Of a stretch of 25,582 nt of DNA, positions 11,439 to 20,515 are shown in pieces. The notes below the pieces were generated by a model. It worked only from the letters and a program-made list of their open reading frames with translations. It did no database searches and had not been told where the DNA came from. Within the stretch, counting starts at the first letter, position 1, and the number at the start of each line of letters is the position of its first letter. The position numbers were made by a program, and so were the translations under genes. Source of the DNA: an uncultured Candidatus Saccharibacteria bacterium (GTDB lineage Bacteria > Patescibacteriota > Saccharimonadia > Saccharimonadales > CAIOMD01); contig CAZAXJ010000001.1 in assembly GCA_964489075.1 (NCBI GenBank), forward strand, positions 1-25,582, written 5' to 3'.

Positions 11439-11894
11439 ATGACAAAAGCGAAGAAACCAACTAAAGACGCCCAAATTGCAGAACTTACTGTAGATTTACA
11501 GCGCTTACAAGCCGAATTTATCAATTTTAAAAGGCGTAGCGAAGAAGACAGAATCCGTGCAATTAACACTGGTAAAGAACAAGCCGTTAGCGCACTACTG
11601 CCAGTTTTAGACAATATTGATAGAGCAATAAGCCATGAACCGACAGACATTAAAGACCATACTTGGGTTAAAGGTATAAATTCGGTAGCAAGTCAACTTG
11701 AATCACAACTAAAAGCAATTGGTCTTTTAAAAATAGGCAAGCAAGGTGAGTTATTTGACCCGCAAAAACACGATGCGGTTGCAGTAGATGAAACTGACGG
11801 CAAGCAAGAGGTTATCGGAGAAGTTTTGCAGCAAGGATATCAACTTGGGGATCAGATAATTCGCCATGCAATGGTAAAAGTTACAAAGAAGTAG
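11439..11894 (+). CDS. grpE: nucleotide exchange factor GrpE
   Basis: [52 protein letters not shown]; AAGGA SD. Confidence 0.95.
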
Positions 11895-11907
11895 AGGAGT
11901 AATATTT

Positions 11908-13803
11908 ATGGGAAAAATTATTGGAATAGATTTAGGAACAACGAATAGTGCAATGGCTGTAATGGAAGGCGGTAAGCCAGAAATTATTGCTAATGCTGAG
12001 GGCGCGAGAACAACACCAAGCGTTGTTGCGGTTAATAAAACAGGCGAACGATTAGTTGGCCAAGTGGCAAGGCGTCAAGCAGTTACAAATCCTAGCAATA
12101 CTGTTTATGAAATGAAGCGGCTTATTGGTCGTCGCTGGGAAGATAAAGAAGTTCAGCGCGACATTAAGCTAATGGGCTACGAAATTGTTAAAAGTGGTAC
12201 TAGCGTTAAGGTAAAAATGGGCGATAAAAGTTACAGTCCAGAAGAATTAAGTGCAATGGTACTTAGTAAATTAAAAGCAGATGCCGAAGCATTTTTGGGC
12301 CAACCGGTTACAGAGGCAGTTATTACAGTTCCAGCTTACTTTGATGATGCACAGCGTCATGCAACGAAAGATGCTGGTAAAATTGCTGGCTTAGAAGTTA
12401 AGCGAATTATTAATGAACCAACTGCAGCCGCCCTTGCCTACGGTTTAGATAAAGATGGTAAAGACGAAAAAATTGCCGTCTATGACCTAGGTGGTGGCAC
12501 ATTTGATATTTCAATTTTAGAACTTGGCGATGGTGTATTTGAGGTTAAGAGTACAAATGGAGACACTCATTTAGGTGGTGCAGATTTTGACCGTGCAATT
12601 GTTAATCATTTGCTTGAAGAATTTAAAAAAGAACATGGCCAAGACTTAACTGATGATAAAGCTGCTATGCAGCGCTTACGTGATGAAGCTGAGAAAGCTA
12701 AAATCGAATTAAGCACAACTAACGAGGTTGTAATTAACCTACCTTTCTTAACAGCAACAGCAGATGGCCCCGTTCACTTCGAATATAAACTTACTCGTGC
12801 AAAATTAGAAAGTTTGGTTGGTAAGCTTGTCGATCGAACAATTGCTCCTGTCGAAAAAGCTTTAAAAGACGCTGGCTTAAAAAAGACTGATATTAACGCC
12901 GTGGTTCTTGTTGGCGGTATGACACGCATGCCAGCAGTACAAGAAAAGGTAAAGGCCTTTTTTGGTAAAGATCCAATGAAGGGTGTCAATCCGGACGAGG
13001 TTGTGGCAGTCGGTGCAGCGATTCAAGGCGGTGTGCTTGCCGGCGATGTGAAGGACGTACTTTTGCTTGACGTTACTCCATTAAGCCTAGGTATTGAAAC
13101 TATGGGTGGTGTAAGTACAAAGCTTATTGAACGAAACACAACCATCCCAAGCAGTAAAAGCGAAACGTTTAGTACAGCTGCAGATAATCAACCACAAGTT
13201 GAAGTTCATGTATTACAAGGTGAGCGCGAAATGGCTGCTGATAACAAAAGCTTAGGTCGTTTTATCTTAGACGGAATCGCACCAGCGCCGCGTGGAATCC
13301 CCCAAATCGAAGTTACATTTAATATCGATGCAAACGGCATTTTGAATGTAACAGCCAAAGATAAGGGAACAGGTAAAGAACAAAGTATTACCATTCAAAA
13401 CAGCGGCAATTTAAGCAAAGAAGATGTAGAAAAAGCTCAAAAAGAGGCCGAGGCGAATGCCGAAGCAGATAAGAAAAAGCGCGAAGCTATCGATGCGAAA
13501 AATGCATTAGAAAACGCAATTTATCAGGCTGAAAAACTCAAAAGTGATAACGCAGATAAACTAAGCGATGATGATAAAAAAGCTCTAGACGAAGCGATTA
13601 AAGAAGCCCAAGGCAAGGCAGAGACCGACGATAAAGACGAGTTAGAGAAGACGGCGAAAGATTTGACTGATAAAATAATGCCAATCGGCGCCAAGCTTTA
13701 TGAATCTGCTGAAAAGCCAGAAGATGCTAAGAAGGAAGATGGCCCTGTAGAAGGCGAAGTCGTAGACGAAGAAAAAGACTCAGACGATAAAAAAGAAAAA
13801 TAA
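11908..13803 (+). CDS. dnaK: chaperone DnaK (Hsp70)
   Basis: [32 protein letters not shown]; GAGGAG SD. Confidence 0.99.
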
Positions 13804-13820
13804 TTTAAGGAGACGCCTAA

Positions 13821-14918
13821 GTGGCTAAACGGGATTATTACGAAGTATTAGGCGTTGGTAAAAACGCATCGGCGGATGAAATTAAAAAAGCGTTCCGCCG
13901 CTTAGCCGTACAACATCACCCAGATAAAGAAGGTGGCGACGAAGCCAAATTTAAAGAAGTTAATGAAGCTTACGAAGTTTTAAAAGATAGCGAAAAACGT
14001 CAGCGTTATGATCAGTTTGGTCACGCCGGTGTTGGTGGTGCATCGGGTGGAGGAACCGGCGGTAGCCCATTTGAAGGATTTAATTTTAACAGCCAAAATA
14101 TCAACTTTGATTTTGGCGACATGGGCGACATTTTTGGATCATTTTTTGGTGGCGGGGGTAGTCGACAGCAAGCAAGGCGCGGCCGTGATATCGAAACCGT
14201 AATTGATCTAAACTTTGAAGAAGCAGTTTTTGGTGTAGAAAAATCACTGAAGCTTAATCTAGAAGCCGAATGTGAACATTGCAAGGGCAATGGTGCAGAA
14301 CCGGGTTATGAACTTAAAACTTGCTCAACCTGTAAAGGTAGCGGCCAAGTTGTTAAAGTTATGCGAACCATTTTAGGCAACATTCAACAAGCTGCCACCT
14401 GTCACGACTGTAACGGAACAGGTAAAAAGCCAGAAAAGGCTTGCAGTGTTTGTGGTGGCAAAGGTGTTAAAAAGAAAGAACAAACAATTGATTTAAAAAT
14501 CCCCGCCGGTATTGATGATGGCGCAACTATAAGATTGCGCGAATACGGCGAAGCAGTTCAAGGTGGCAGTAAGGGCGATTTGTATGTTCACATTCGTGTT
14601 AAAGCTCATAAAAAATTCACGCGTGAAGGCGACTTAATTTTAAGCCACGAACAGGTTGATATGGTAACCGCAACACTTGGTGGCGAAATAGAAGTTGAAA
14701 CCGTAGACGGTAAAATAACAATGAAGGTACCAGCAGGTACCCAAAGTGGCAGCGACTTTAAGCTGTCAAATCACGGCGTAAAACACCCCAAAGGCGATAG
14801 CCGAGGGGCACACATTGTAACAATCGATGTACAAACTCCAACAAAGTTAAGTAAAAAGCAAAAAGAACTGTTAGAAGAATTTCAAAAACAATCAGGTAAA
14901 AAATCCTTCTTTAACTAA
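13821..14918 (+). CDS. dnaJ: chaperone DnaJ
   Basis: J-domain with HPD, G/F region, four CxxCxGxG repeats; GTG start after AAGGAG. Confidence 0.98.
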
Positions 14919-14936
14919 AGTGTTACAATAGTTGCA

Positions 14937-16337
14937 GTGGGAACTGTTTTAGAAAAAGCAAATAATAAGCAAATAAATTCTATAGACGAGGCGCTGCGTA
15001 TTGCAGCGCTTTGTAATGTATCTGACTATACTTTTTTCGAAGGGAGCCACCAAAAACGTGCCCAAGAACGTGACCATTTTTTATCCGGAAAGAAGTATGT
15101 TCCTGAATATGATTATCCACGATTGTTCGAACTAGATAAGTTGATAAATAATGAAAAACAACTCATAAAATCGTTAGAAATCATTAGCGATAATATTGAA
15201 CTTATTGGTTGGGATAAAGCTGAACTTTATCTTGCGTCAATAATTATGAATTTAAAAAGATCACAGCTTGTTATGGCCGCAGCCGAAATGAATGCAGCCG
15301 AGGTAGGGAGTCCTTGGAGGGATAGTGCACTTAAAAAATTCAAAGAACTTAATAGTGAATTATACGGCGATATTAATAAAAGCTATTTTTTCGGAATTTT
15401 AAATACAGAGTTGGAAATCGTAAAGAATTACAGACCAAAAAATCACAGAGAAACAGAAATCGTTGAATTTTTAAAACACGAACTAAGATTTATAAAAAAG
15501 GGTTACAAAGAGCACGCGATAATTACTGAAAGTGACAAAGACAAGTATTTAAAAAATATTAATGAACTTTATGGATCAATTTTAAATGTTGTTCCTGAAG
15601 GCAAAAAATTTAATGCAATTCAATGCGCAGAGATTATGAACAAAACTTTGGTTTTTGCGGGATTTTCTGAAGATTGGAAGGTGGTAATTGATTCCAAAAA
15701 GTCGTCACCATCAACGCTTGGTTCAAAAAAAAGAATCTATTTACCAAAAGATACACAGCGCACAAGTGACCAAATTAAAGGCCTAATATTGCATGAACAA
15801 GAAGTACACGCCAGAAGATATTTCAATGGGGTTCAGTTTCCAGAACTGTCGCTACTTGCAACAGGTACGGCTGAGTATCTACCAGTAGAAGAAGGCTTGG
15901 GAACCATAATGGCGCTTTTGGCAGCCCCAAACGAAACAAGCCCTTTAGAACGTGCAAGACAACGCTATATACACATCGGTTTAGCATTGGGAGTTGATGG
16001 CTACAAGAGGGACGCTCGTCAAGTATTCGAGATTACATGGAGACTGCACGTGCTCAATACTTGCCATCATAAAGAGATAACTAAAAACGATGAAAGCCAA
16101 TCAAAAAAGGATGTTTATTCGCATATCGAAAATATTTTTAGAGGCACAGATTGCTTTACTCCAGGTATCGTATACACCAAAGCAAAAGTTTATTACGAAG
16201 GTCTTGTAAAAAATTCTAAATATCTAGCGCAAATAAAAGATGACAAGGCTGCGTTTATAAGAATGTTTCTTGGCAAATATAACCATACTGATACTACCGA
16301 AACAAAGAGAATTATGCGTATAATTGGAGCAAGATGA
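14937..16337 (+). CDS. DUF1704 / MATCAP-like (QEGLA-type) zinc metallo-carboxypeptidase
   Basis: HEQEVH (HExxxH) followed by RYFNG, then EEGLG, IFRGT..PG.VYTKAKVYYEG and FLGKY. Confidence 0.8.
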   Translation: MGTVLEKANNKQINSIDEALRIAALCNVSDYTFFEGSHQKRAQERDHFLSGKKYVPEYDYPRLFELDKLINNEKQLIKSLEIISDNIELIGWDKAELYLASIIMNLKRSQLVMAAAEMNAAEVGSPWRDSALKKFKELNSELYGDINKSYFFGILNTELEIVKNYRPKNHRETEIVEFLKHELRFIKKGYKEHAIITESDKDKYLKNINELYGSILNVVPEGKKFNAIQCAEIMNKTLVFAGFSEDWKVVIDSKKSSPSTLGSKKRIYLPKDTQRTSDQIKGLILHEQEVHARRYFNGVQFPELSLLATGTAEYLPVEEGLGTIMALLAAPNETSPLERARQRYIHIGLALGVDGYKRDARQVFEITWRLHVLNTCHHKEITKNDESQSKKDVYSHIENIFRGTDCFTPGIVYTKAKVYYEGLVKNSKYLAQIKDDKAAFIRMFLGKYNHTDTTETKRIMRIIGAR

Positions 16338-16444
16338 AAAATACAAATCAAAATGGTTTTATTACGATGATAGTTATGATTCTGGCGATACTTGTTGTTA
16401 CGATAGTTTTTGTTTTTATGAGGGTTGTTAAGGCGAACCAGTAA
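16334..16444 (+). CDS. 36 aa prepilin-like small membrane peptide MKNTNQNG-FITMIVMILAILVVTIVFVFMRVVKANQ
   Basis: ATGA overlap with the DUF1704 stop, GGAG at 16326-29, TAA at 16442-44. Class III signal-like QNG|F followed by a 21-residue hydrophobic helix. Below the ORF-track length cutoff. Confidence 0.7.
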   Translation: MKNTNQNGFITMIVMILAILVVTIVFVFMRVVKANQ

Positions 16445-16500
16445 TATTGTAAAATAATAATATTTATGTTATAATAATTTGATTTGTTAATAATTTTAAA

Positions 16501-16902
16501 ATGAAGCATATTATTGGTAAGTTTGAAAAAGTAAGTTTCCCTGAATTTGGGATTAATAACGTGGTGGCAAAAATTGATACGGGTGCTTACAGTGGAGCGC
16601 TCCATTGTACAAAAATTAAAGAACTCAAAACGAACAAAGGCATGGTGCTTCAATTTTCGCCGTTCGATCATCCAGAGGTAGAAATTAAAACTAGCCAATA
16701 TGAGGTTGGTGGAGTGCGAAGCTCAAACGGAATTTCTGAACATCGATATTATATAAAAACTACAATCAGAATTGGAACACATCAGTATCCAATCACAATT
16801 ACACTGTCAAACAGAAGTAGTATGCGATACCCCGTGCTTCTAGGTAGAAAGTTTTTAATGCAAAGTAATTTTTTGGTTGACGTGGGTCAGGATAATCGAT
16901 AA
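16501..16902 (+). CDS. RimK-associated retropepsin-like aspartic protease (RimB-like; often labelled ATP-dependent zinc protease)
   Basis: AKIDTGAYSGALH, VRSSNG.SEHRYYI, LSNRSSMRYPVLLGRKFL; lies directly upstream of rimK. Confidence 0.88.
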   Translation: MKHIIGKFEKVSFPEFGINNVVAKIDTGAYSGALHCTKIKELKTNKGMVLQFSPFDHPEVEIKTSQYEVGGVRSSNGISEHRYYIKTTIRIGTHQYPITITLSNRSSMRYPVLLGRKFLMQSNFLVDVGQDNR

Positions 16903-16922
16903 GGTTCGAACAAGGAATACTC

Positions 16923-17825
16923 ATGAAAATAGCTATTCTTTCTAACGGCCCGGGCAACTATTCAACAAAACGACTGGCTGAAGAAGCGACTAGTCGCGGA
17001 CATGAAGTTAGTGTTATTAATTATGCAAAATGCTACATAACTGCAGAAAGTGCAAAACCTCGCGTTCGTTATGAGGGCAAAGATATTTCAAATTTCGATG
17101 CAATTATTCCCAGAATAGCCAACAGCTATACCAAATATGGTTCTTCAATTGTTAGGCAATTTGAAATGATGGGTGTCTATACGACGACTAAATCCATCGC
17201 TCTAGTTCGCTCAAGAGACAAGCTTCGTTCGATGCAAATTATGGCAAGATATGGTGTGGGAATACCAAATACAGTTTTCAGTAGGGAAACTGCGGAGATT
17301 GATGATGTACTAGAGCAAGTCGGCGGAACCCCTGTAATTATAAAAGTAGCTCGCGGAACACATGGTAACGGTGTCGTACTAGCCGAAACAAAAAAAGCGG
17401 CAAAAGCGGTAATGCAAGCATTTTATGTCGAAGGTGTTAATTTTTTGGTTCAAGAGTTTGTAGCTGAAAGTGCTGGTACCGATATTCGTGCTTTCGTTGT
17501 TGGTAATCGCGTTGTAGCAAGTATGCAAAGACAAAGTCTCGATGACGATTTTCGCTCAAACTTACATCAAGGTGGAAAAGGAACGATAGTTAAACTTACC
17601 GATATCGAAAAGAAAACCGCTCTTAAAGCGGCAAAAGCGATGGGTTTGCAAATATGCGGTGTAGATATGATGAGAAGTGATAGGGGTCCACTGGTTTTAG
17701 AAGTTAATGCGAGCCCAGGTTTTAGCATAGAAAAAGTAACTAATCGGAATGTAGCTGCAAAAATAATTGAATATATAGAACAAAATGCAAAACAAAGAAA
17801 CCGCAAAGATCGCGTTGGCGCGTAG
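16923..17825 (+). CDS. rimK: RimK family ATP-grasp alpha-L-glutamate ligase
   Basis: DAIIPRI, SRDKLRSMQ, PVIIKVARGTHGNGVVLAE, LVQEFV, DIRAFVVG, FRSNLHQGG, GVDMM, LEVNASPG; AAGGA SD. Confidence 0.95.
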   Translation: MKIAILSNGPGNYSTKRLAEEATSRGHEVSVINYAKCYITAESAKPRVRYEGKDISNFDAIIPRIANSYTKYGSSIVRQFEMMGVYTTTKSIALVRSRDKLRSMQIMARYGVGIPNTVFSRETAEIDDVLEQVGGTPVIIKVARGTHGNGVVLAETKKAAKAVMQAFYVEGVNFLVQEFVAESAGTDIRAFVVGNRVVASMQRQSLDDDFRSNLHQGGKGTIVKLTDIEKKTALKAAKAMGLQICGVDMMRSDRGPLVLEVNASPGFSIEKVTNRNVAAKIIEYIEQNAKQRNRKDRVGA

Positions 17826-18273
17826 CAAAGAAGGATTAATAGTTCAGCTATCTATAGTTGCTATAATAGTTATTTTTTTAAGTATTGTTGTACTTTGGCT
17901 TTATAGTATTTTGCAAGAAAATCCCAAAACAATAACCGTTGGTAAAGAATCGTTTACTGTTGAAGTTGCGGATACTGAAGCTGAACGCGAAAAAGGATTG
18001 GGGGAACGTGATGGTTTGGGGCAAAATACTGGTATGCTTTTTGATTTTAAAGAAAACAAAAAATGGAAAATTTGGATGCTCAACATGAGATTCCCTATAG
18101 ATATTATTTGGTTGGATGCAAATGGAAAAATTGTACATATAAAAAAGAATGCAACACCAGACAGCTTTCCCAATGTTTTTATTCCTGAAACCCCAGCAAC
18201 TTATGTTGTTGAACTCAATTCTGGCGCAATAGACAAAACAGGAGTTAAATTAGGCGATTCAGTTCGCCTTTAA
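17785..18273 (+). CDS. DUF192 family protein with N-terminal membrane anchor
   Basis: EVADTEAEREKGL, GMLFDF, WMLNMRFPIDIIWLD, YVVELNSG. The start is uncertain (41 nt overlap with rimK). Confidence 0.88.
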   Translation: MQNKETAKIALARSKEGLIVQLSIVAIIVIFLSIVVLWLYSILQENPKTITVGKESFTVEVADTEAEREKGLGERDGLGQNTGMLFDFKENKKWKIWMLNMRFPIDIIWLDANGKIVHIKKNATPDSFPNVFIPETPATYVVELNSGAIDKTGVKLGDSVRL

Positions 18274-18291
18274 AGATGTTATGCTTATCAT

Positions 18292-18789
18292 ATGAATCCG
18301 ACCCTAATTTTACTGATATCCTGCGGAGTCGTTTTTGCTTTTTTACCACTTCTTTTTCGATCTAATGCGGTAGCAATATTTCTCACACTTTGTGCAGGAT
18401 CAATTGTAAGCAAGCTTGTGGCCCAAGATGCCACACAGATTGTAAATTCAATAGTAAACTTTAACGTACCTATGCTTAGTATAGTGCAGATATTTCTTAT
18501 TGTGATTGCTCCGGTTGTTTTACTGCTAGGTTTACGTAAAAGTATTACAACACCGGGGATAATTTGGCAATTAATACCGGCTTTAGCCGCAGCAGTACTT
18601 GCGGTAATGTTTATTTCCGCAAGTTTGCCTTACGAAATACAAAAACAAGTTGAGGAAAGCCAGATGTACGGACTTGTTAAGCCATATTTTGGGTTAGCCG
18701 CAGCAGCTGGTTTATTGGCAAGTGTGCTACATTTATGGGCTCATAAGCCAAAACATCTCGGCAAACACAGTAAAAAACACAAAAAATAA
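18292..18789 (+). CDS. hypothetical membrane protein (4-5 TM) with a His/Lys-rich C-terminal tail
   Basis: 165 aa hydrophobic ORF ending HKPKHLGKHSKKHKK; TGTTATGCT -10 box 6 nt before the ATG. Confidence 0.75.
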   Translation: MNPTLILLISCGVVFAFLPLLFRSNAVAIFLTLCAGSIVSKLVAQDATQIVNSIVNFNVPMLSIVQIFLIVIAPVVLLLGLRKSITTPGIIWQLIPALAAAVLAVMFISASLPYEIQKQVEESQMYGLVKPYFGLAAAAGLLASVLHLWAHKPKHLGKHSKKHKK

Positions 18790-18817
18790 ACATTGTAGCT
18801 TAGTGTGGTGTTTATTT
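18784..18817 (+). terminator. possible terminator-like hairpin between convergent units
   Basis: AAATAAACA (18784-92) / TGTTTATTT (18809-17), extended by GU pairs on the + strand. AT-rich, with no clear U-tail. Confidence 0.3.
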
Positions 18818-18893
18818 GGAGGGTCCAGTGGGGCTCGAACCCACGACACCCTGCTTAAAAGGCAGGTGCTCTAACCGGCTGAGCTATGGACCC
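18817..18893 (-). tRNA. tRNA-Lys (anticodon TTT)
   Basis: GGGTCCA TA GCTC..GAGC, CCTGC-CTTTTAA-GCAGG, GTGGG-TTCGAGC-CCCAC, TGGACCC-T-CCA; 77 nt with encoded CCA. Confidence 0.95.
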
Positions 18894-18917
18894 AAGTAGA
18901 GTTTTATTATTTACCGT

Positions 18918-18993
18918 TATCCGCACTCTAAGGCTAGAGCACAGGTGCCGATTAATAATTTTGTAGTTCCTGCGTCGGTTGAACTATGGACTA
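18918..18993 (-). pseudogene. possible eroded tRNA-like relic upstream of tRNA-Lys
   Basis: Its 5' part TAGTCCATAGTTCAACCG resembles the tRNA-Lys 5' end GGGTCCATAGCTCAGCCG. It has a D-arm-like GTTC/GAAC stem and a 3' hairpin GTGCTCTA/TAGAGTGC, but no anticodon arm. Confidence 0.3.
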
Positions 18994-19015
18994 AAGAATT
19001 AAAAATTCAAATGTT

Positions 19016-19044
19016 ATTTTGCCTGAAAACCGCTTAAAAGTCAA
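19016..19044 (-). promoter_or_regulatory. putative sigma70 promoter for the tRNA-Lys transcript
   Basis: Minus-strand TTGACT (19044-39), 17 nt spacer, CAAAAT (19021-16). Confidence 0.45.
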
Positions 19045-19087
19045 TTGTTACAACATCTTAAAATTAGTGTTAAAATTATAAATTCTG

Positions 19088-20515
19088 ATGCAAAAAACAA
19101 AAATTCGCCGAACGACTCTGATTGTACTTTTTTTAATTTCGCTAATCTGCGGTTTATTTATTTCTAAATTTACAATGCCACTTTCAATATCGTGGTTGAT
19201 TATATGCTTAATATTTTTGCTGTTGCTCGCTAGAAAATCGATTATTTTTATATTTGCAATCATTGTTATTGGCTTACTAATTGGATGGTGGAGGGGTGGA
19301 ATCCTGCAAACACAAATGCAAGCATATAATAAAAACTTTTATGAAAAAGTAGTCGTTACAGGCTTAGCTACAGAAGATGGTGTTTATGGCAATAAAGGCC
19401 AGCTGGAGTTTAGTATTGAAAATGTAGTACTAAATGGCAAACCAGCTCCAGGTAAAATAAAAATTAGTGGCTATACACCAAGCATAAATCGCCATGATTA
19501 TATCGAAGCTACAGGAAAGCTTTACCCAACACTGGGTGGTAAACAAGCTGCAGTTTATTATGCAGATATCGATGTACTTGCAACAGCGAACAGCCCTATA
19601 GAAATATTTCGCAAAAAATTTGTTGTAGGCATGGAAAATGCTCTACCAGAACCTGCCGCAAGCTTCGGCATCGGATTATTAGTTGGGCAGCGTAGCTTAT
19701 TACCAGATGATGTATCTTTGGTGCTAACTATTGCTGGGCTTACTCATATAGTTGCAGTTTCTGGTTATAACTTAACTATAATCATTCGAGCTGTTACGAA
19801 AATTATGAGTAAATTTTCGAGATTCCAAATTTTTATAACGGCCATAACGTTAATTTATATTTTTATTTTAGTTACTGGGTTTTCGCCTTCAATTGTTCGG
19901 GCTGCTTTTGTCGCAGGCATCGGGCTCTTAGCTTGGTATTTTGGGCGTACAATTCGCCCTATTTTATTAATCATATTAGTTGCTGCAATAACTGGTTTTA
20001 TTAATCCGTTATATGTATGGGGGGATATTGGGTGGTACTTGTCGTTTCTAGCTTTTTTTGGCGTTTTGATTTTAGCGCCACTTTGTCTAAAAGTATTTAC
20101 CAAAAAGGACCCAAAAGAAATAGGGCTACTACCCTCAATTGTCGTAGAAAGTTTTGCCGCGCAAATTATGACGCTACCTTTAATTATGTTTATATTTGCA
20201 CGGTTTTCGATTGTTGGCTTTTTGGCAAATATCATTGTCGTGCCAATGGTACCATTTGCAATGCTGTTTTCGTTGTTTGCAGGTTTGGCTGGAATGATTG
20301 TCCCATCAGTTTCTGGATGGATTGCATTACCCGCAAGACTATTGCTTAATTTAATGTTATGGATTGCGGACCTTTTTGCAAATATCCCACATGCAAACTT
20401 AGTAATAAGTATTAGTGCTATTGGCATGGCTTTGATGTATGGTGCTATAGTCGCTTTTATTAGTGGCCTAAGTAGGAAAGCTCAATCTGTTACAATAGTA
20501 GAAAGTAGTAAGTGA
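19088..20515 (+). CDS. comEC: ComEC/Rec2 DNA-uptake channel (OB/DUF4131 plus Competence domain, no metallo-beta-lactamase domain)
   Basis: GLLVGQR, AGLTHIVAVSGYN, TGFSPSIVRAA, INPLYV.GDIGWYLSF, QIMTLPL, LANIIVVP. Confidence 0.92.
   Translation: MQKTKIRRTTLIVLFLISLICGLFISKFTMPLSISWLIICLIFLLLLARKSIIFIFAIIVIGLLIGWWRGGILQTQMQAYNKNFYEKVVVTGLATEDGVYGNKGQLEFSIENVVLNGKPAPGKIKISGYTPSINRHDYIEATGKLYPTLGGKQAAVYYADIDVLATANSPIEIFRKKFVVGMENALPEPAASFGIGLLVGQRSLLPDDVSLVLTIAGLTHIVAVSGYNLTIIIRAVTKIMSKFSRFQIFITAITLIYIFILVTGFSPSIVRAAFVAGIGLLAWYFGRTIRPILLIILVAAITGFINPLYVWGDIGWYLSFLAFFGVLILAPLCLKVFTKKDPKEIGLLPSIVVESFAAQIMTLPLIMFIFARFSIVGFLANIIVVPMVPFAMLFSLFAGLAGMIVPSVSGWIALPARLLLNLMLWIADLFANIPHANLVISISAIGMALMYGAIVAFISGLSRKAQSVTIVESSK

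What the first reader, a model, noticed from the sequence alone, without database searches (positions are those of the whole stretch)
14937..17825. Candidate protein-glutamylation module: one writer (RimK) with two different erasers (RimB-like endopeptidase and DUF1704/MATCAP-like carboxypeptidase)
Seen: DUF1704 metallopeptidase (HExxxH...EEGL), a small ORF, a retropepsin (DTGA) and rimK are co-oriented and adjacent. Established: RimK adds C-terminal glutamates to ribosomal protein S6 and can make poly-alpha-glutamate; Pseudomonas RimB is a retropepsin-like protease acting on polyglutamate; eukaryotic DUF1704-family MATCAP/TMCP enzymes trim C-terminal residues from acidic tubulin tails. Inference: a reversible C-terminal tail-editing system, analogous to the tubulin code, in a reduced-genome bacterium. 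The DUF1704 enzyme may trim or unmask substrates. As a CPR epibiont, the organism could also target host proteins or use stored glutamate.
Basis: partly seen in the sequence, partly recalled or inferred. Interest (0 to 1): 0.7.

Follow-up and report, generated by a model that had tools for sequence, protein, structure and literature searches.

The report
RimK glutamate ligase with two peptidases
A tiny-genome Saccharibacteria bacterium keeps the enzyme that adds glutamate tails to ribosomal protein S6 next to two different tail-cutting enzymes, one of them a bacterial cousin of the human tubulin-trimming enzyme MATCAP; the pairing recurs across the phylum, even as fused genes, but no activity has been tested.

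Summary
On the + strand lie a 466-aa DUF1704/MATCAP-family zinc peptidase (14937-16337), a 36-aa membrane ORF (16334-16444), a RimB-like retropepsin (16501-16902) and RimK (16923-17825).

The DUF1704 protein folds confidently (pLDDT 92). Its best structural match is human MATCAP (Z 19.5), and HExxxH plus EEG are invariant in its family.

The genome (677 kb, 96% complete) has exactly one ligase of this type, one retropepsin and one DUF1704, all in this window. Its S6 ends in ...DDKEE, and no protein encodes five or more consecutive glutamates.

DUF1704-rimB-rimK adjacency holds in 12 of 21 DUF1704-bearing relatives and 19 of 24 Saccharibacteria loci. That could be inherited synteny.

Independent support comes from 57 DUF1704 loci in other Patescibacteria. 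There, 19 are fused to an RloC-type ATP-grasp ligase and 24 more have a ligase within 300 bp, often with a retropepsin domain.

Best reading (about 0.55): an exo-acting carboxypeptidase that complements the endo-acting RimB on glutamate tails or oligoglutamate made by RimK. Activity, substrate and co-transcription are untested.

This is a new variant of the known RimK-RimB kind. This scan has already noted the same theme on other genomes.

The parts
14937..16337 (+). DUF1704/MATCAP-family gluzincin, 466 aa. Predicted cytoplasmic zinc carboxypeptidase of the divergent 'long' subfamily (clade A).
   Evidence: PF08014 63.5 bits. HExxxH (286-291) and EEG (318-320) are invariant in alignment A1. 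AF2 model pLDDT 91.9. Best structural match is MATCAP 7z6s/7z5g, Z 19.5 over 270 residues, followed by DUF885 and M32 carboxypeptidases. It is the only DUF1704 in the genome.
16334..16444 (+). 36-aa ORF with one hydrophobic helix, overlapping the DUF1704 stop codon (ATGA). Probably a real small membrane protein, but not a conserved member of the module.
   Evidence: Read. tblastn found it again only in L022 (65% identity), where it lies between dnaJ and DUF1704. In the other loci the DUF1704-rimB gap is 30-290 bp, too short for such an ORF.
16447..16475 (+). Promoter-like site TTGTAA-17-TATAAT with an extended TG, 26 nt upstream of rimB.
   Evidence: Best match in 11500-19200 (10 of 12). This is a consensus match only; the total number of sites in the region is not above shuffles.
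16501..16902 (+). RimB-like retropepsin-type aspartic endopeptidase, 133 aa, catalytic D26-T-G-A. No N-terminal hydrophobic or signal-like segment by inspection.
   Evidence: PF05618 70.6 bits. Best NCBIfam model is RimB (87 bits, below the cut-off of 200), ahead of RloA1-3 at 33-43 bits. A homologue lies just upstream of rimK in 48 of 61 relatives.
16923..17825 (+). RimK, an alpha-L-glutamate ligase of ribosomal protein S6, 300 aa.
   Evidence: PF18030 plus PF08443. NF007764 331.2 bits against a cut-off of 331, and TIGR00768 250 bits. It is the only ATP-grasp ligase of the RimK/RloC type in the genome.

Best explanation
The window encodes the minimal form of a ligase-plus-two-hydrolases module.

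RimK adds alpha-linked glutamates to a C-terminal ...EE. The most likely substrate is ribosomal protein S6 of this genome, which ends ...DDKEE. RimK may also make free poly-alpha-glutamate.

The RimB-like retropepsin is the endo-acting cutter. In Pseudomonas it needs five or six contiguous glutamates.

The DUF1704 protein is a cytoplasmic, MATCAP-fold zinc carboxypeptidase that acts from the C-terminal end. It would trim the short glutamate stubs that RimB cannot cut, digest the oligoglutamate that RimB releases back to free glutamate, or both.

Shown here: gene identities, fold, an intact metal site, the S6 terminus, and conserved linkage and fusions.

Inferred: the carboxypeptidase activity, its preference for glutamate, S6 as the target, and the division of labour with RimB.
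For: Fold and active site
- PF08014 match, invariant HExxxH and EEG, and MATCAP as the top structural match at Z 19.5. The next matches are DUF885 and M32 carboxypeptidases.
- MATCAP/TMCP1/2 shorten polyglutamate chains, and mutation of the HExxxH glutamate kills them (PMC10499314).

Linkage in Saccharimonadia
- 12 of 21 DUF1704-bearing relatives have it in the rimK cluster.
- 19 of 24 loci have rimB and rimK downstream; where rimB follows directly, the gap is 30-290 bp.

Independent linkage elsewhere in the phylum
- Of 57 DUF1704 loci, 19 are ATP-grasp::DUF1704 fusions and 24 have an ATP-grasp gene within 300 bp.
- 16 also carry a retropepsin domain. dnaJ is nearby in none.

This genome
- Exactly one such ligase, one retropepsin and one DUF1704.
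- S6 is one of only 5 of about 793 crude ORFs that end in EE, and no protein encodes E5 or longer. RimB's only foreseeable substrate is therefore RimK's product.

Other
- RimB needs at least 5-6 Glu (PMC11957791), which leaves a role for an exopeptidase.
- In the related Rlo-type systems the neighbouring 7TM protein ends in EE in 13 of 26 cases, against 14 of 510 background ORFs.
Against: - No biochemical or expression data exist. No RNA run was listed.
- The strongest promoter-like site separates DUF1704 from rimB. The DUF1704 gene starts 18 nt after dnaJ, so it may be transcribed with dnaK-dnaJ rather than with rimBK.
- All Saccharimonadia DUF1704 genes form one clade. Adjacency within that class is therefore one inherited arrangement, not many independent events.
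- 40 of 61 relatives have no DUF1704, although nearly all have rimK. At least four genomes have a DUF1704 far from rimK or have no rimK (G045, G004, G036, G010).
- 14 of 49 RimK-bearing relatives have an S6 that does not end in Glu.
- The protein fails the NCBIfam QEGLA equivalog cut-off (53 vs 338). Sequence alone does not reach MATCAP in the PDB.
Confidence: 0.55

Rival explanations
1. The same module works on something other than S6. RimK here mainly makes free poly-alpha-glutamate, or tags another protein, as the related Rlo-type systems may do. The DUF1704 enzyme and RimB would then process or recycle that product, for example as a glutamate store or osmolyte buffer.
For: - Pseudomonas RimK makes free poly-alpha-glutamate when stimulated by RimB (PMC11957791).
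- 14 of 49 RimK-bearing relatives have an S6 that does not end in Glu.
- Elsewhere in the phylum DUF1704 partners with RloC-type ligases whose substrate is unknown and is not S6.
- Four other ORFs of this genome also end in EE.
Against: - RimK reaches the S6-ligase equivalog cut-off, though only just.
- S6 here has the canonical EE end.
- S6 ends in Glu in 35 of 49 RimK-bearing relatives, against 3 of 9 that lack RimK or have it broken.
Confidence: 0.2
2. The adjacency is inherited synteny without shared function. The DUF1704 peptidase belongs to the dnaK-dnaJ heat-shock unit as a general C-terminal trimming or quality-control peptidase.
For: - There are 18 nt between the dnaJ stop and the DUF1704 start, and no + strand terminator.
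- A promoter-like site lies between DUF1704 and rimB.
- dnaJ lies upstream in 21 of 26 Saccharimonadia loci.
- The Saccharimonadia DUF1704 genes are one clade.
Against: - The dnaJ-DUF1704 distance varies from 60 bp to more than 3 kb, with unrelated genes inserted. Where rimB follows DUF1704 directly, the gap stays at 30-290 bp.
- dnaJ is near DUF1704 in 0 of 57 loci outside the order, whereas an ATP-grasp ligase is fused or within 300 bp in 43 of 57.
Confidence: 0.12
3. Unmasking: the carboxypeptidase removes a non-glutamate C-terminal residue to expose the ...E or ...EE end that RimK needs. It would then act before the writer rather than as an eraser.
For: - MATCAP itself removes a terminal Tyr to expose Glu (PMC10499314).
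- Some relatives have S6 ends such as ...EEK...DEA...EEA and ...TEN.
Against: - In this genome S6 already ends in EE.
- Genomes with DUF1704 do not more often have a non-Glu S6 end: 4 of 18 against 10 of 31 without it.
Confidence: 0.06

Closest known systems
RimK-RimB (RimABK) module of Pseudomonas fluorescens (PMC4741518, PMC7343187, PMC11957791)
   Same: - rimB lies immediately upstream of rimK.
- RimK has the pre-ATP-grasp and ATP-grasp domains.
- RimB is a cytoplasmic retropepsin with DTG.
- S6 has a C-terminal Glu.
   Different: - There is no RimA (EAL) gene here.
- A third enzyme, a MATCAP-fold zinc carboxypeptidase, sits directly upstream. It is not part of the described Pseudomonas system.
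- The RimB-like protein scores below NCBI's RimB equivalog cut-off.
Eukaryotic MATCAP / TMCP1 and TMCP2 (KIAA0895L, KIAA0895; PDB 7z5g, 7z6s; PMC10499314)
   Same: - Same fold (Z 19.5, 270 aligned residues, 20% identity).
- HExxxH plus a downstream Glu metal site.
- The eukaryotic enzymes remove C-terminal residues from acidic tails and shorten polyglutamate made by ATP-grasp (TTLL) ligases.
   Different: - The bacterial protein has no tubulin substrate.
- It has a roughly 200-residue helical N-terminal region and belongs to a divergent clade.
- Its activity has not been tested.
RloABC operon of Pseudomonas aeruginosa (PMC12239564) and its Patescibacteria relatives
   Same: An ATP-grasp ligase is paired with a retropepsin. 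In other Patescibacteria this type of system (7TM-transglutaminase plus an RloC-type ligase, often carrying a retropepsin domain) has DUF1704 fused or adjacent.
   Different: - This genome has no 7TM-transglutaminase and no RloC-type ligase.
- The partner ligase here is a bona fide RimK.
- The retropepsin has no signal peptide.
TIGR02421 'QEGLA motif' proteins of Vibrionaceae
   Same: They belong to the same Pfam family. In Photobacterium damselae the QEGLA gene carries the locus tag next to that of a GshB-annotated ATP-grasp gene. Both genes, and rimK, are strongly induced at low salt (PMC10308900).
   Different: The window protein scores 53 bits against a cut-off of 338, so it is not an equivalog. 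The adjacency in Photobacterium was inferred from locus tags only.

Membership tests
[quoted passage not shown] | Pre-ATP-grasp N-domain plus RimK-type ATP-grasp domain | tested here: met
   PF18030 125.9 bits and PF08443 194.4 bits, both full length.
[quoted passage not shown] | Score at or above the NCBIfam equivalog cut-off | tested here: met
   NF007764 scores 331.2 against a cut-off of 331, which is borderline. TIGR00768 scores 250 against 143.
[quoted passage not shown] | A substrate S6 with a C-terminal Glu-Glu is present in the genome | tested here: met
   S6 at G000:C17:7288-7668 ends ...QEDDKEE.
[quoted passage not shown] | ATP-dependent addition of Glu to S6 | not testable with these tools
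   Needs an enzyme assay or mass spectrometry.
RimB (retropepsin-like polyglutamate endopeptidase) | PF05618 retropepsin-like domain with the catalytic D-T/S-G | tested here: met
   PF05618 70.6 bits over residues 4-130. D26-T-G-A was read.
RimB (retropepsin-like polyglutamate endopeptidase) | Encoded next to rimK and lacking a signal peptide (unlike RloA) | tested here: met
   20 nt upstream of rimK. The N-terminus MKHIIGKFEKVSFPEF has no hydrophobic leader by inspection. The same arrangement is seen in 48 of 61 relatives.
RimB (retropepsin-like polyglutamate endopeptidase) | Score at or above the NCBIfam RimB equivalog cut-off | tested here: not met
   NF052261 scores 87 bits against a cut-off of 200. 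It is still the best of the four retropepsin models. The protein is therefore filed as RimB-like, not as an equivalog.
MATCAP / DUF1704 (PF08014) gluzincin carboxypeptidases | Pfam gathering threshold | tested here: met
   63.5 bits against 27, in two stretches covering profile positions 113-235 and about 258-326.
MATCAP / DUF1704 (PF08014) gluzincin carboxypeptidases | HExxxH plus a downstream Glu as the third metal ligand | tested here: met
   H286, E287, H291, E318 and E319 are invariant in 27 homologues. That E318 or E319 is the metal ligand is inferred from its spacing, which resembles that of TMCP2 E329/E364.
MATCAP / DUF1704 (PF08014) gluzincin carboxypeptidases | MATCAP fold | tested here: met
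   VIA-align gives Z 19.5, rmsd 3.6 Å and 270 aligned residues to 7z6s/7z5g, well above the next matches. Foldseek found nothing.
MATCAP / DUF1704 (PF08014) gluzincin carboxypeptidases | Carboxypeptidase activity on acidic C-terminal tails | not testable with these tools
   Needs an enzyme assay.
TIGR02421 QEGLA-motif protein (NCBIfam hypothetical equivalog) | Score at or above the cut-off | tested here: not met
   53.4 bits against 338.65. The tree places the window protein in a separate deep clade from the canonical form.
RloABC-type system | A 7TM-transglutaminase (RloB) and an RloC-type ATP-grasp in the genome | tested here: not met
   There is no PF14402 match, and the only PF14397-like match is RimK itself, in a 96% complete genome.

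The most novel reading that the evidence does not exclude
MATCAP-type carboxypeptidases arose in bacteria as the dedicated hydrolase partners of ATP-grasp C-terminal amino-acid ligases, sometimes within a single polypeptide. The eukaryotic tubulin-tail writer/eraser pair (TTL/TTLL ligases with MATCAP/TMCP) would then descend from such a pre-assembled bacterial ligase-peptidase module. On this reading the Saccharibacteria RimK-RimB-DUF1704 set is a living minimal 'glutamylation code' acting on the ribosome.
Probability: 0.3. Interest if true: 0.8.

Novelty: new variant of a known kind. Interest (0 to 1): 0.55.

Why it matters
RimK-RimB is the only described bacterial system that writes and erases a C-terminal polyglutamate tail on a protein. 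A third, exo-acting component of the MATCAP family would complete the parallel with the tubulin code: an ATP-grasp writer, an endo-type eraser and a carboxypeptidase-type eraser.

It would also give the large, uncharacterised bacterial DUF1704 family a testable function, and it would suggest where the eukaryotic tubulin carboxypeptidases came from.

This genome has only one ligase, one retropepsin and one DUF1704, so it offers the simplest three-enzyme set for in vitro reconstitution. No paper in the searchable library mentions DUF1704 or MATCAP together with RimK. I could not read Iyer et al. 2009 (Mol Biosyst), which surveyed ATP-grasp-peptidase contexts and may already note the association.

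Tried and rejected
- Foldseek against the PDB and AlphaFold/Swiss-Prot gave only noise (TM about 0.1), although the model is confident. VIA-align without Foldseek found MATCAP.
- Sequence and profile searches of the PDB did not reach MATCAP.
- Iyer et al. 2009 could not be fetched by DOI or by a guessed PMC id.
- Two distant DUF1704 representatives, chosen in the hope of reaching other phyla, were again Saccharibacteria loci. I did not obtain proteobacterial QEGLA loci as DNA; that link rests on locus tags in one paper.
- No RNA-seq run was listed for this DNA, so co-transcription could not be tested and read laying was not used.
- The 'unmasking' idea and the 'small ORF is part of the module' idea were both rejected on comparative grounds.
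In my sample this held for only half (13 of 26).
- My own two-round ATP-grasp HMM absorbed the C-terminal retropepsin domain of some fusion proteins. Domain calls were therefore spot-checked with Pfam.
Full report
**What is there**

The region lies in a co-oriented, tightly packed run of genes on the + strand:
- dnaK, 11908-13803
- dnaJ, 13821-14918
- a 466-aa ORF, 14937-16337
- a 36-aa ORF, 16334-16444, whose ATG overlaps the preceding stop
- a 133-aa ORF, 16501-16902
- a 300-aa ORF, 16923-17825
- a DUF192 gene, 17785-18273
- a membrane protein, then comEC

Pfam and NCBIfam identify the three enzymes. The 466-aa protein matches PF08014 (MATCAP, formerly DUF1704) at 63.5 bits. The 133-aa protein matches PF05618 at 70.6 bits; its best NCBIfam model is RimB, at 87 bits against a cut-off of 200. 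The 300-aa protein is RimK: Rimk_N plus the RimK domain, with NF007764 at 331.2 bits against a cut-off of 331.

The genome is 677 kb, in 106 contigs and 96% complete. All close relatives of the DUF1704 gene are Saccharibacteria. The DNA is held by bioreactor metagenome runs.

**The DUF1704 protein**

Forty-two homologues (besides the window's own protein) were found in the 5.8-billion-protein collection, and 887 cluster representatives at E up to 0.001. In an alignment of 27 of them, H286, E287, H291 (HExxxH) and E318, E319, G320 are invariant, together with many Arg, Lys and Tyr residues.

AlphaFold2 gives a confident model, with pLDDT 91.9 and pTM 0.89. Foldseek failed on it. An exhaustive VIA-align search put human MATCAP (7z6s, 7z5g) first at Z 19.5 with 270 aligned residues. 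DUF885 proteins followed at Z 12-14 and M32 carboxypeptidases at Z 9-10. All of these are gluzincin-type folds; M32 and MATCAP are carboxypeptidases.

The protein has no N-terminal hydrophobic segment, so it is predicted to be cytoplasmic. It does not meet the NCBIfam QEGLA equivalog cut-off.

In a tree of 85 Patescibacteria DUF1704 domains it falls in a deep 'long-form' clade (support 98/86). That clade holds all Saccharimonadia sequences plus 12 from other classes. It is separate from the canonical clade that matches Pfam strongly.

**Is the adjacency meaningful?**

Among 61 genomes of the same order:
- RimK is found in 57.
- A RimB-like gene sits just upstream of rimK in 48.
- DUF1704 is found in 21.

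Of those 21 DUF1704-bearing genomes:
- 12 have it in the rimK cluster.
- 2 have it within 6 kb.
- 3 have it on another, mostly short, contig.
- 4 have it far away or have no rimK.

In 24 Saccharibacteria loci fetched through the DUF1704 protein, rimB and rimK follow within 4 kb in 19. Two more end at a contig edge. In the loci where rimB directly follows DUF1704, the gap is 30-290 bp. The dnaJ-DUF1704 gap, by contrast, ranges from about 60 bp to more than 3 kb with unrelated genes inserted.

The locus is also variable. Extra ATP-grasp ligases, RimB::ATP-grasp fusions and second DUF1704 paralogues are inserted in several genomes. Because the Saccharimonadia DUF1704 genes form one clade, this adjacency is one inherited arrangement. 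Taken alone, it could be plain synteny.

**Independent evidence from the rest of the phylum**

In an even sample of 301 Patescibacteria genomes, 59 have a DUF1704 match. I fetched the best locus of the 57 outside the window's own family, G000 and G007. ORFs were labelled with HMMs built in two rounds and spot-checked with Pfam.

The results:
- 19 are single polypeptides of about 790-840 aa, fusing an RloC-type ATP-grasp (PF14397) to DUF1704.
- 24 have a separate ATP-grasp gene within 300 bp.
- 5 have one farther away in the flank.
- 9 have none, and 3 of those lie on short contigs.
- 37 of the 57 loci carry a 7TM-transglutaminase gene (PF14402, RloB-type).
- 16 carry a retropepsin domain, mostly fused to the C-terminus of the ligase. 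In L037 the order is ligase::retropepsin, then DUF1704, then a second ligase.
- dnaJ is nearby in none of the 57, against 21 of 26 Saccharimonadia loci.

So the conserved partner of DUF1704 is an ATP-grasp peptide ligase, often together with a retropepsin, and not the chaperone genes. The trio of ligase, retropepsin and DUF1704 has been assembled around two different ligase families.

**Fit to a glutamate-tail function**

- S6 of this genome ends ...QEDDKEE, the kind of end that E. coli RimK extends (established knowledge).
- In a crude gene call of 793 ORFs, only 5 end in EE, and none encodes five or more consecutive Glu. A RimB-type enzyme needs 5-6 contiguous Glu (PMC11957791). It would therefore have only RimK's products to cut.
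- The genome holds exactly one RimK/RloC-type ligase, one retropepsin and one DUF1704, and no 7TM-transglutaminase.
- Across relatives, S6 ends in Glu in 35 of 49 RimK-bearing genomes, against 3 of 9 that lack RimK or have it broken. This is suggestive only, because the genomes are related and the numbers are small.
- In the Rlo-type systems, the adjacent 7TM protein ends in EE in 13 of 26 cases, against 14 of 510 background ORFs.
- Eukaryotic MATCAP/TMCP1/2 remove C-terminal residues from acidic tails and shorten polyglutamate chains (PMC10499314).

**Mechanism proposed**

RimK writes and RimB cuts long tails endolytically. The DUF1704 carboxypeptidase trims from the end, removing the short stubs that RimB cannot recognise, recycling released oligoglutamate to glutamate, or both. 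The enzymatic steps are inferred, not shown.

**Caveats**

- The best promoter-like site of the region (TTGTAA-17-TATAAT with TG, 16447-16475) lies between the small ORF and rimB. DUF1704 may therefore be transcribed with dnaK-dnaJ, and rimBK separately.
- No RNA data could be found.
- Two thirds of the relatives do without DUF1704.
- The small ORF recurs only in L022, and at a different position.
- The 'unmasking' variant is not supported: a non-Glu S6 end occurs in 4 of 18 genomes with DUF1704 and in 10 of 31 without it.
- Nothing supports action on host proteins.

**Comparison and novelty**

The closest known system is Pseudomonas RimABK, followed by RloABC (PMC12239564). The window differs by lacking RimA and by carrying a MATCAP-fold carboxypeptidase.

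In Photobacterium, a QEGLA gene and a neighbouring GshB-annotated ATP-grasp gene are co-induced with rimK at low salt (PMC10308900).

No paper in the searchable library links DUF1704 or MATCAP with RimK. Iyer et al. 2009 could not be read.

This scan has already noted the same theme on many other genomes. My results agree with those notes and add three things:
- the phylum-wide counts;
- the two-clade tree;
- the finding that this genome holds the minimal one-ligase, two-peptidase set.

Verdict: a real, ordinary-looking but uncharacterised variant of a known kind, with a clear and testable hypothesis.

Noticed in passing
window 16334-16444: A 36-aa ORF (MKNTNQNGF... followed by one hydrophobic helix) overlaps the DUF1704 stop codon by ATGA. 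Its only homologue in the fetched loci is in L022 (3061-3162, 65% identity), where it lies between dnaJ and DUF1704. Another note of this scan reads it as a 'micro-pilin'.
   Followed up: partly
window 17785-18273: A DUF192 (PF02643) gene with an N-terminal membrane anchor. Its listed ORF overlaps the last 41 nt of rimK. A DUF192 gene follows rimK in 11 of 26 Saccharimonadia loci. Its function is unknown.
   Followed up: partly
L028 3958-4746 and L029 5044-5814: GGDEF (diguanylate cyclase) genes lie between dnaJ and the DUF1704-rimB-rimK cluster in two distant Saccharibacteria loci. This recalls the c-di-GMP control of Pseudomonas RimK through RimA.
   Followed up: no
L004 1597-2928, L006 4800-6146, L011 5935-7269, L016 9434-10801: RimB-like retropepsin fused to a second, divergent RimK-like ATP-grasp (443-455 aa), directly upstream of a normal rimK. 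It resembles the published RimBK hybrid, but here it is present in addition to RimK.
   Followed up: partly
L030-L036, L098-L118 (7TM-transglutaminase genes next to ATP-grasp::DUF1704 fusions): The 7TM-transglutaminase proteins carry PKD domains, and 13 of 26 complete ones end in Glu-Glu. Those of family f84 end in KSA, KSS or HRA instead.
   Followed up: partly
G010:C3:187623-188178 and L065: In one relative, rimK is split over two frames, no rimB was found, DUF1704 lies 38 kb away and S6 ends ...EEK. This may be a decaying module.
   Followed up: no
L019 7986-9403: The DUF1704 gene is split into two overlapping ORFs of 111 and 361 aa, which suggests a frameshift or an assembly error.
   Followed up: no
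L034 6104-7942: A 612-aa protein with an N-formylglutamate amidohydrolase-like domain (PF05013) follows DUF1704 in a 7TM-TG / ATP-grasp / DUF1704 / ATP-grasp operon. It may be a further hydrolase of such systems.
   Followed up: no
model m50eb19737f8e: Method note: Foldseek (PDB and AlphaFold/Swiss-Prot) missed MATCAP entirely for a model with pLDDT 92. Exhaustive VIA-align found it at Z 19.5.
   Followed up: yes
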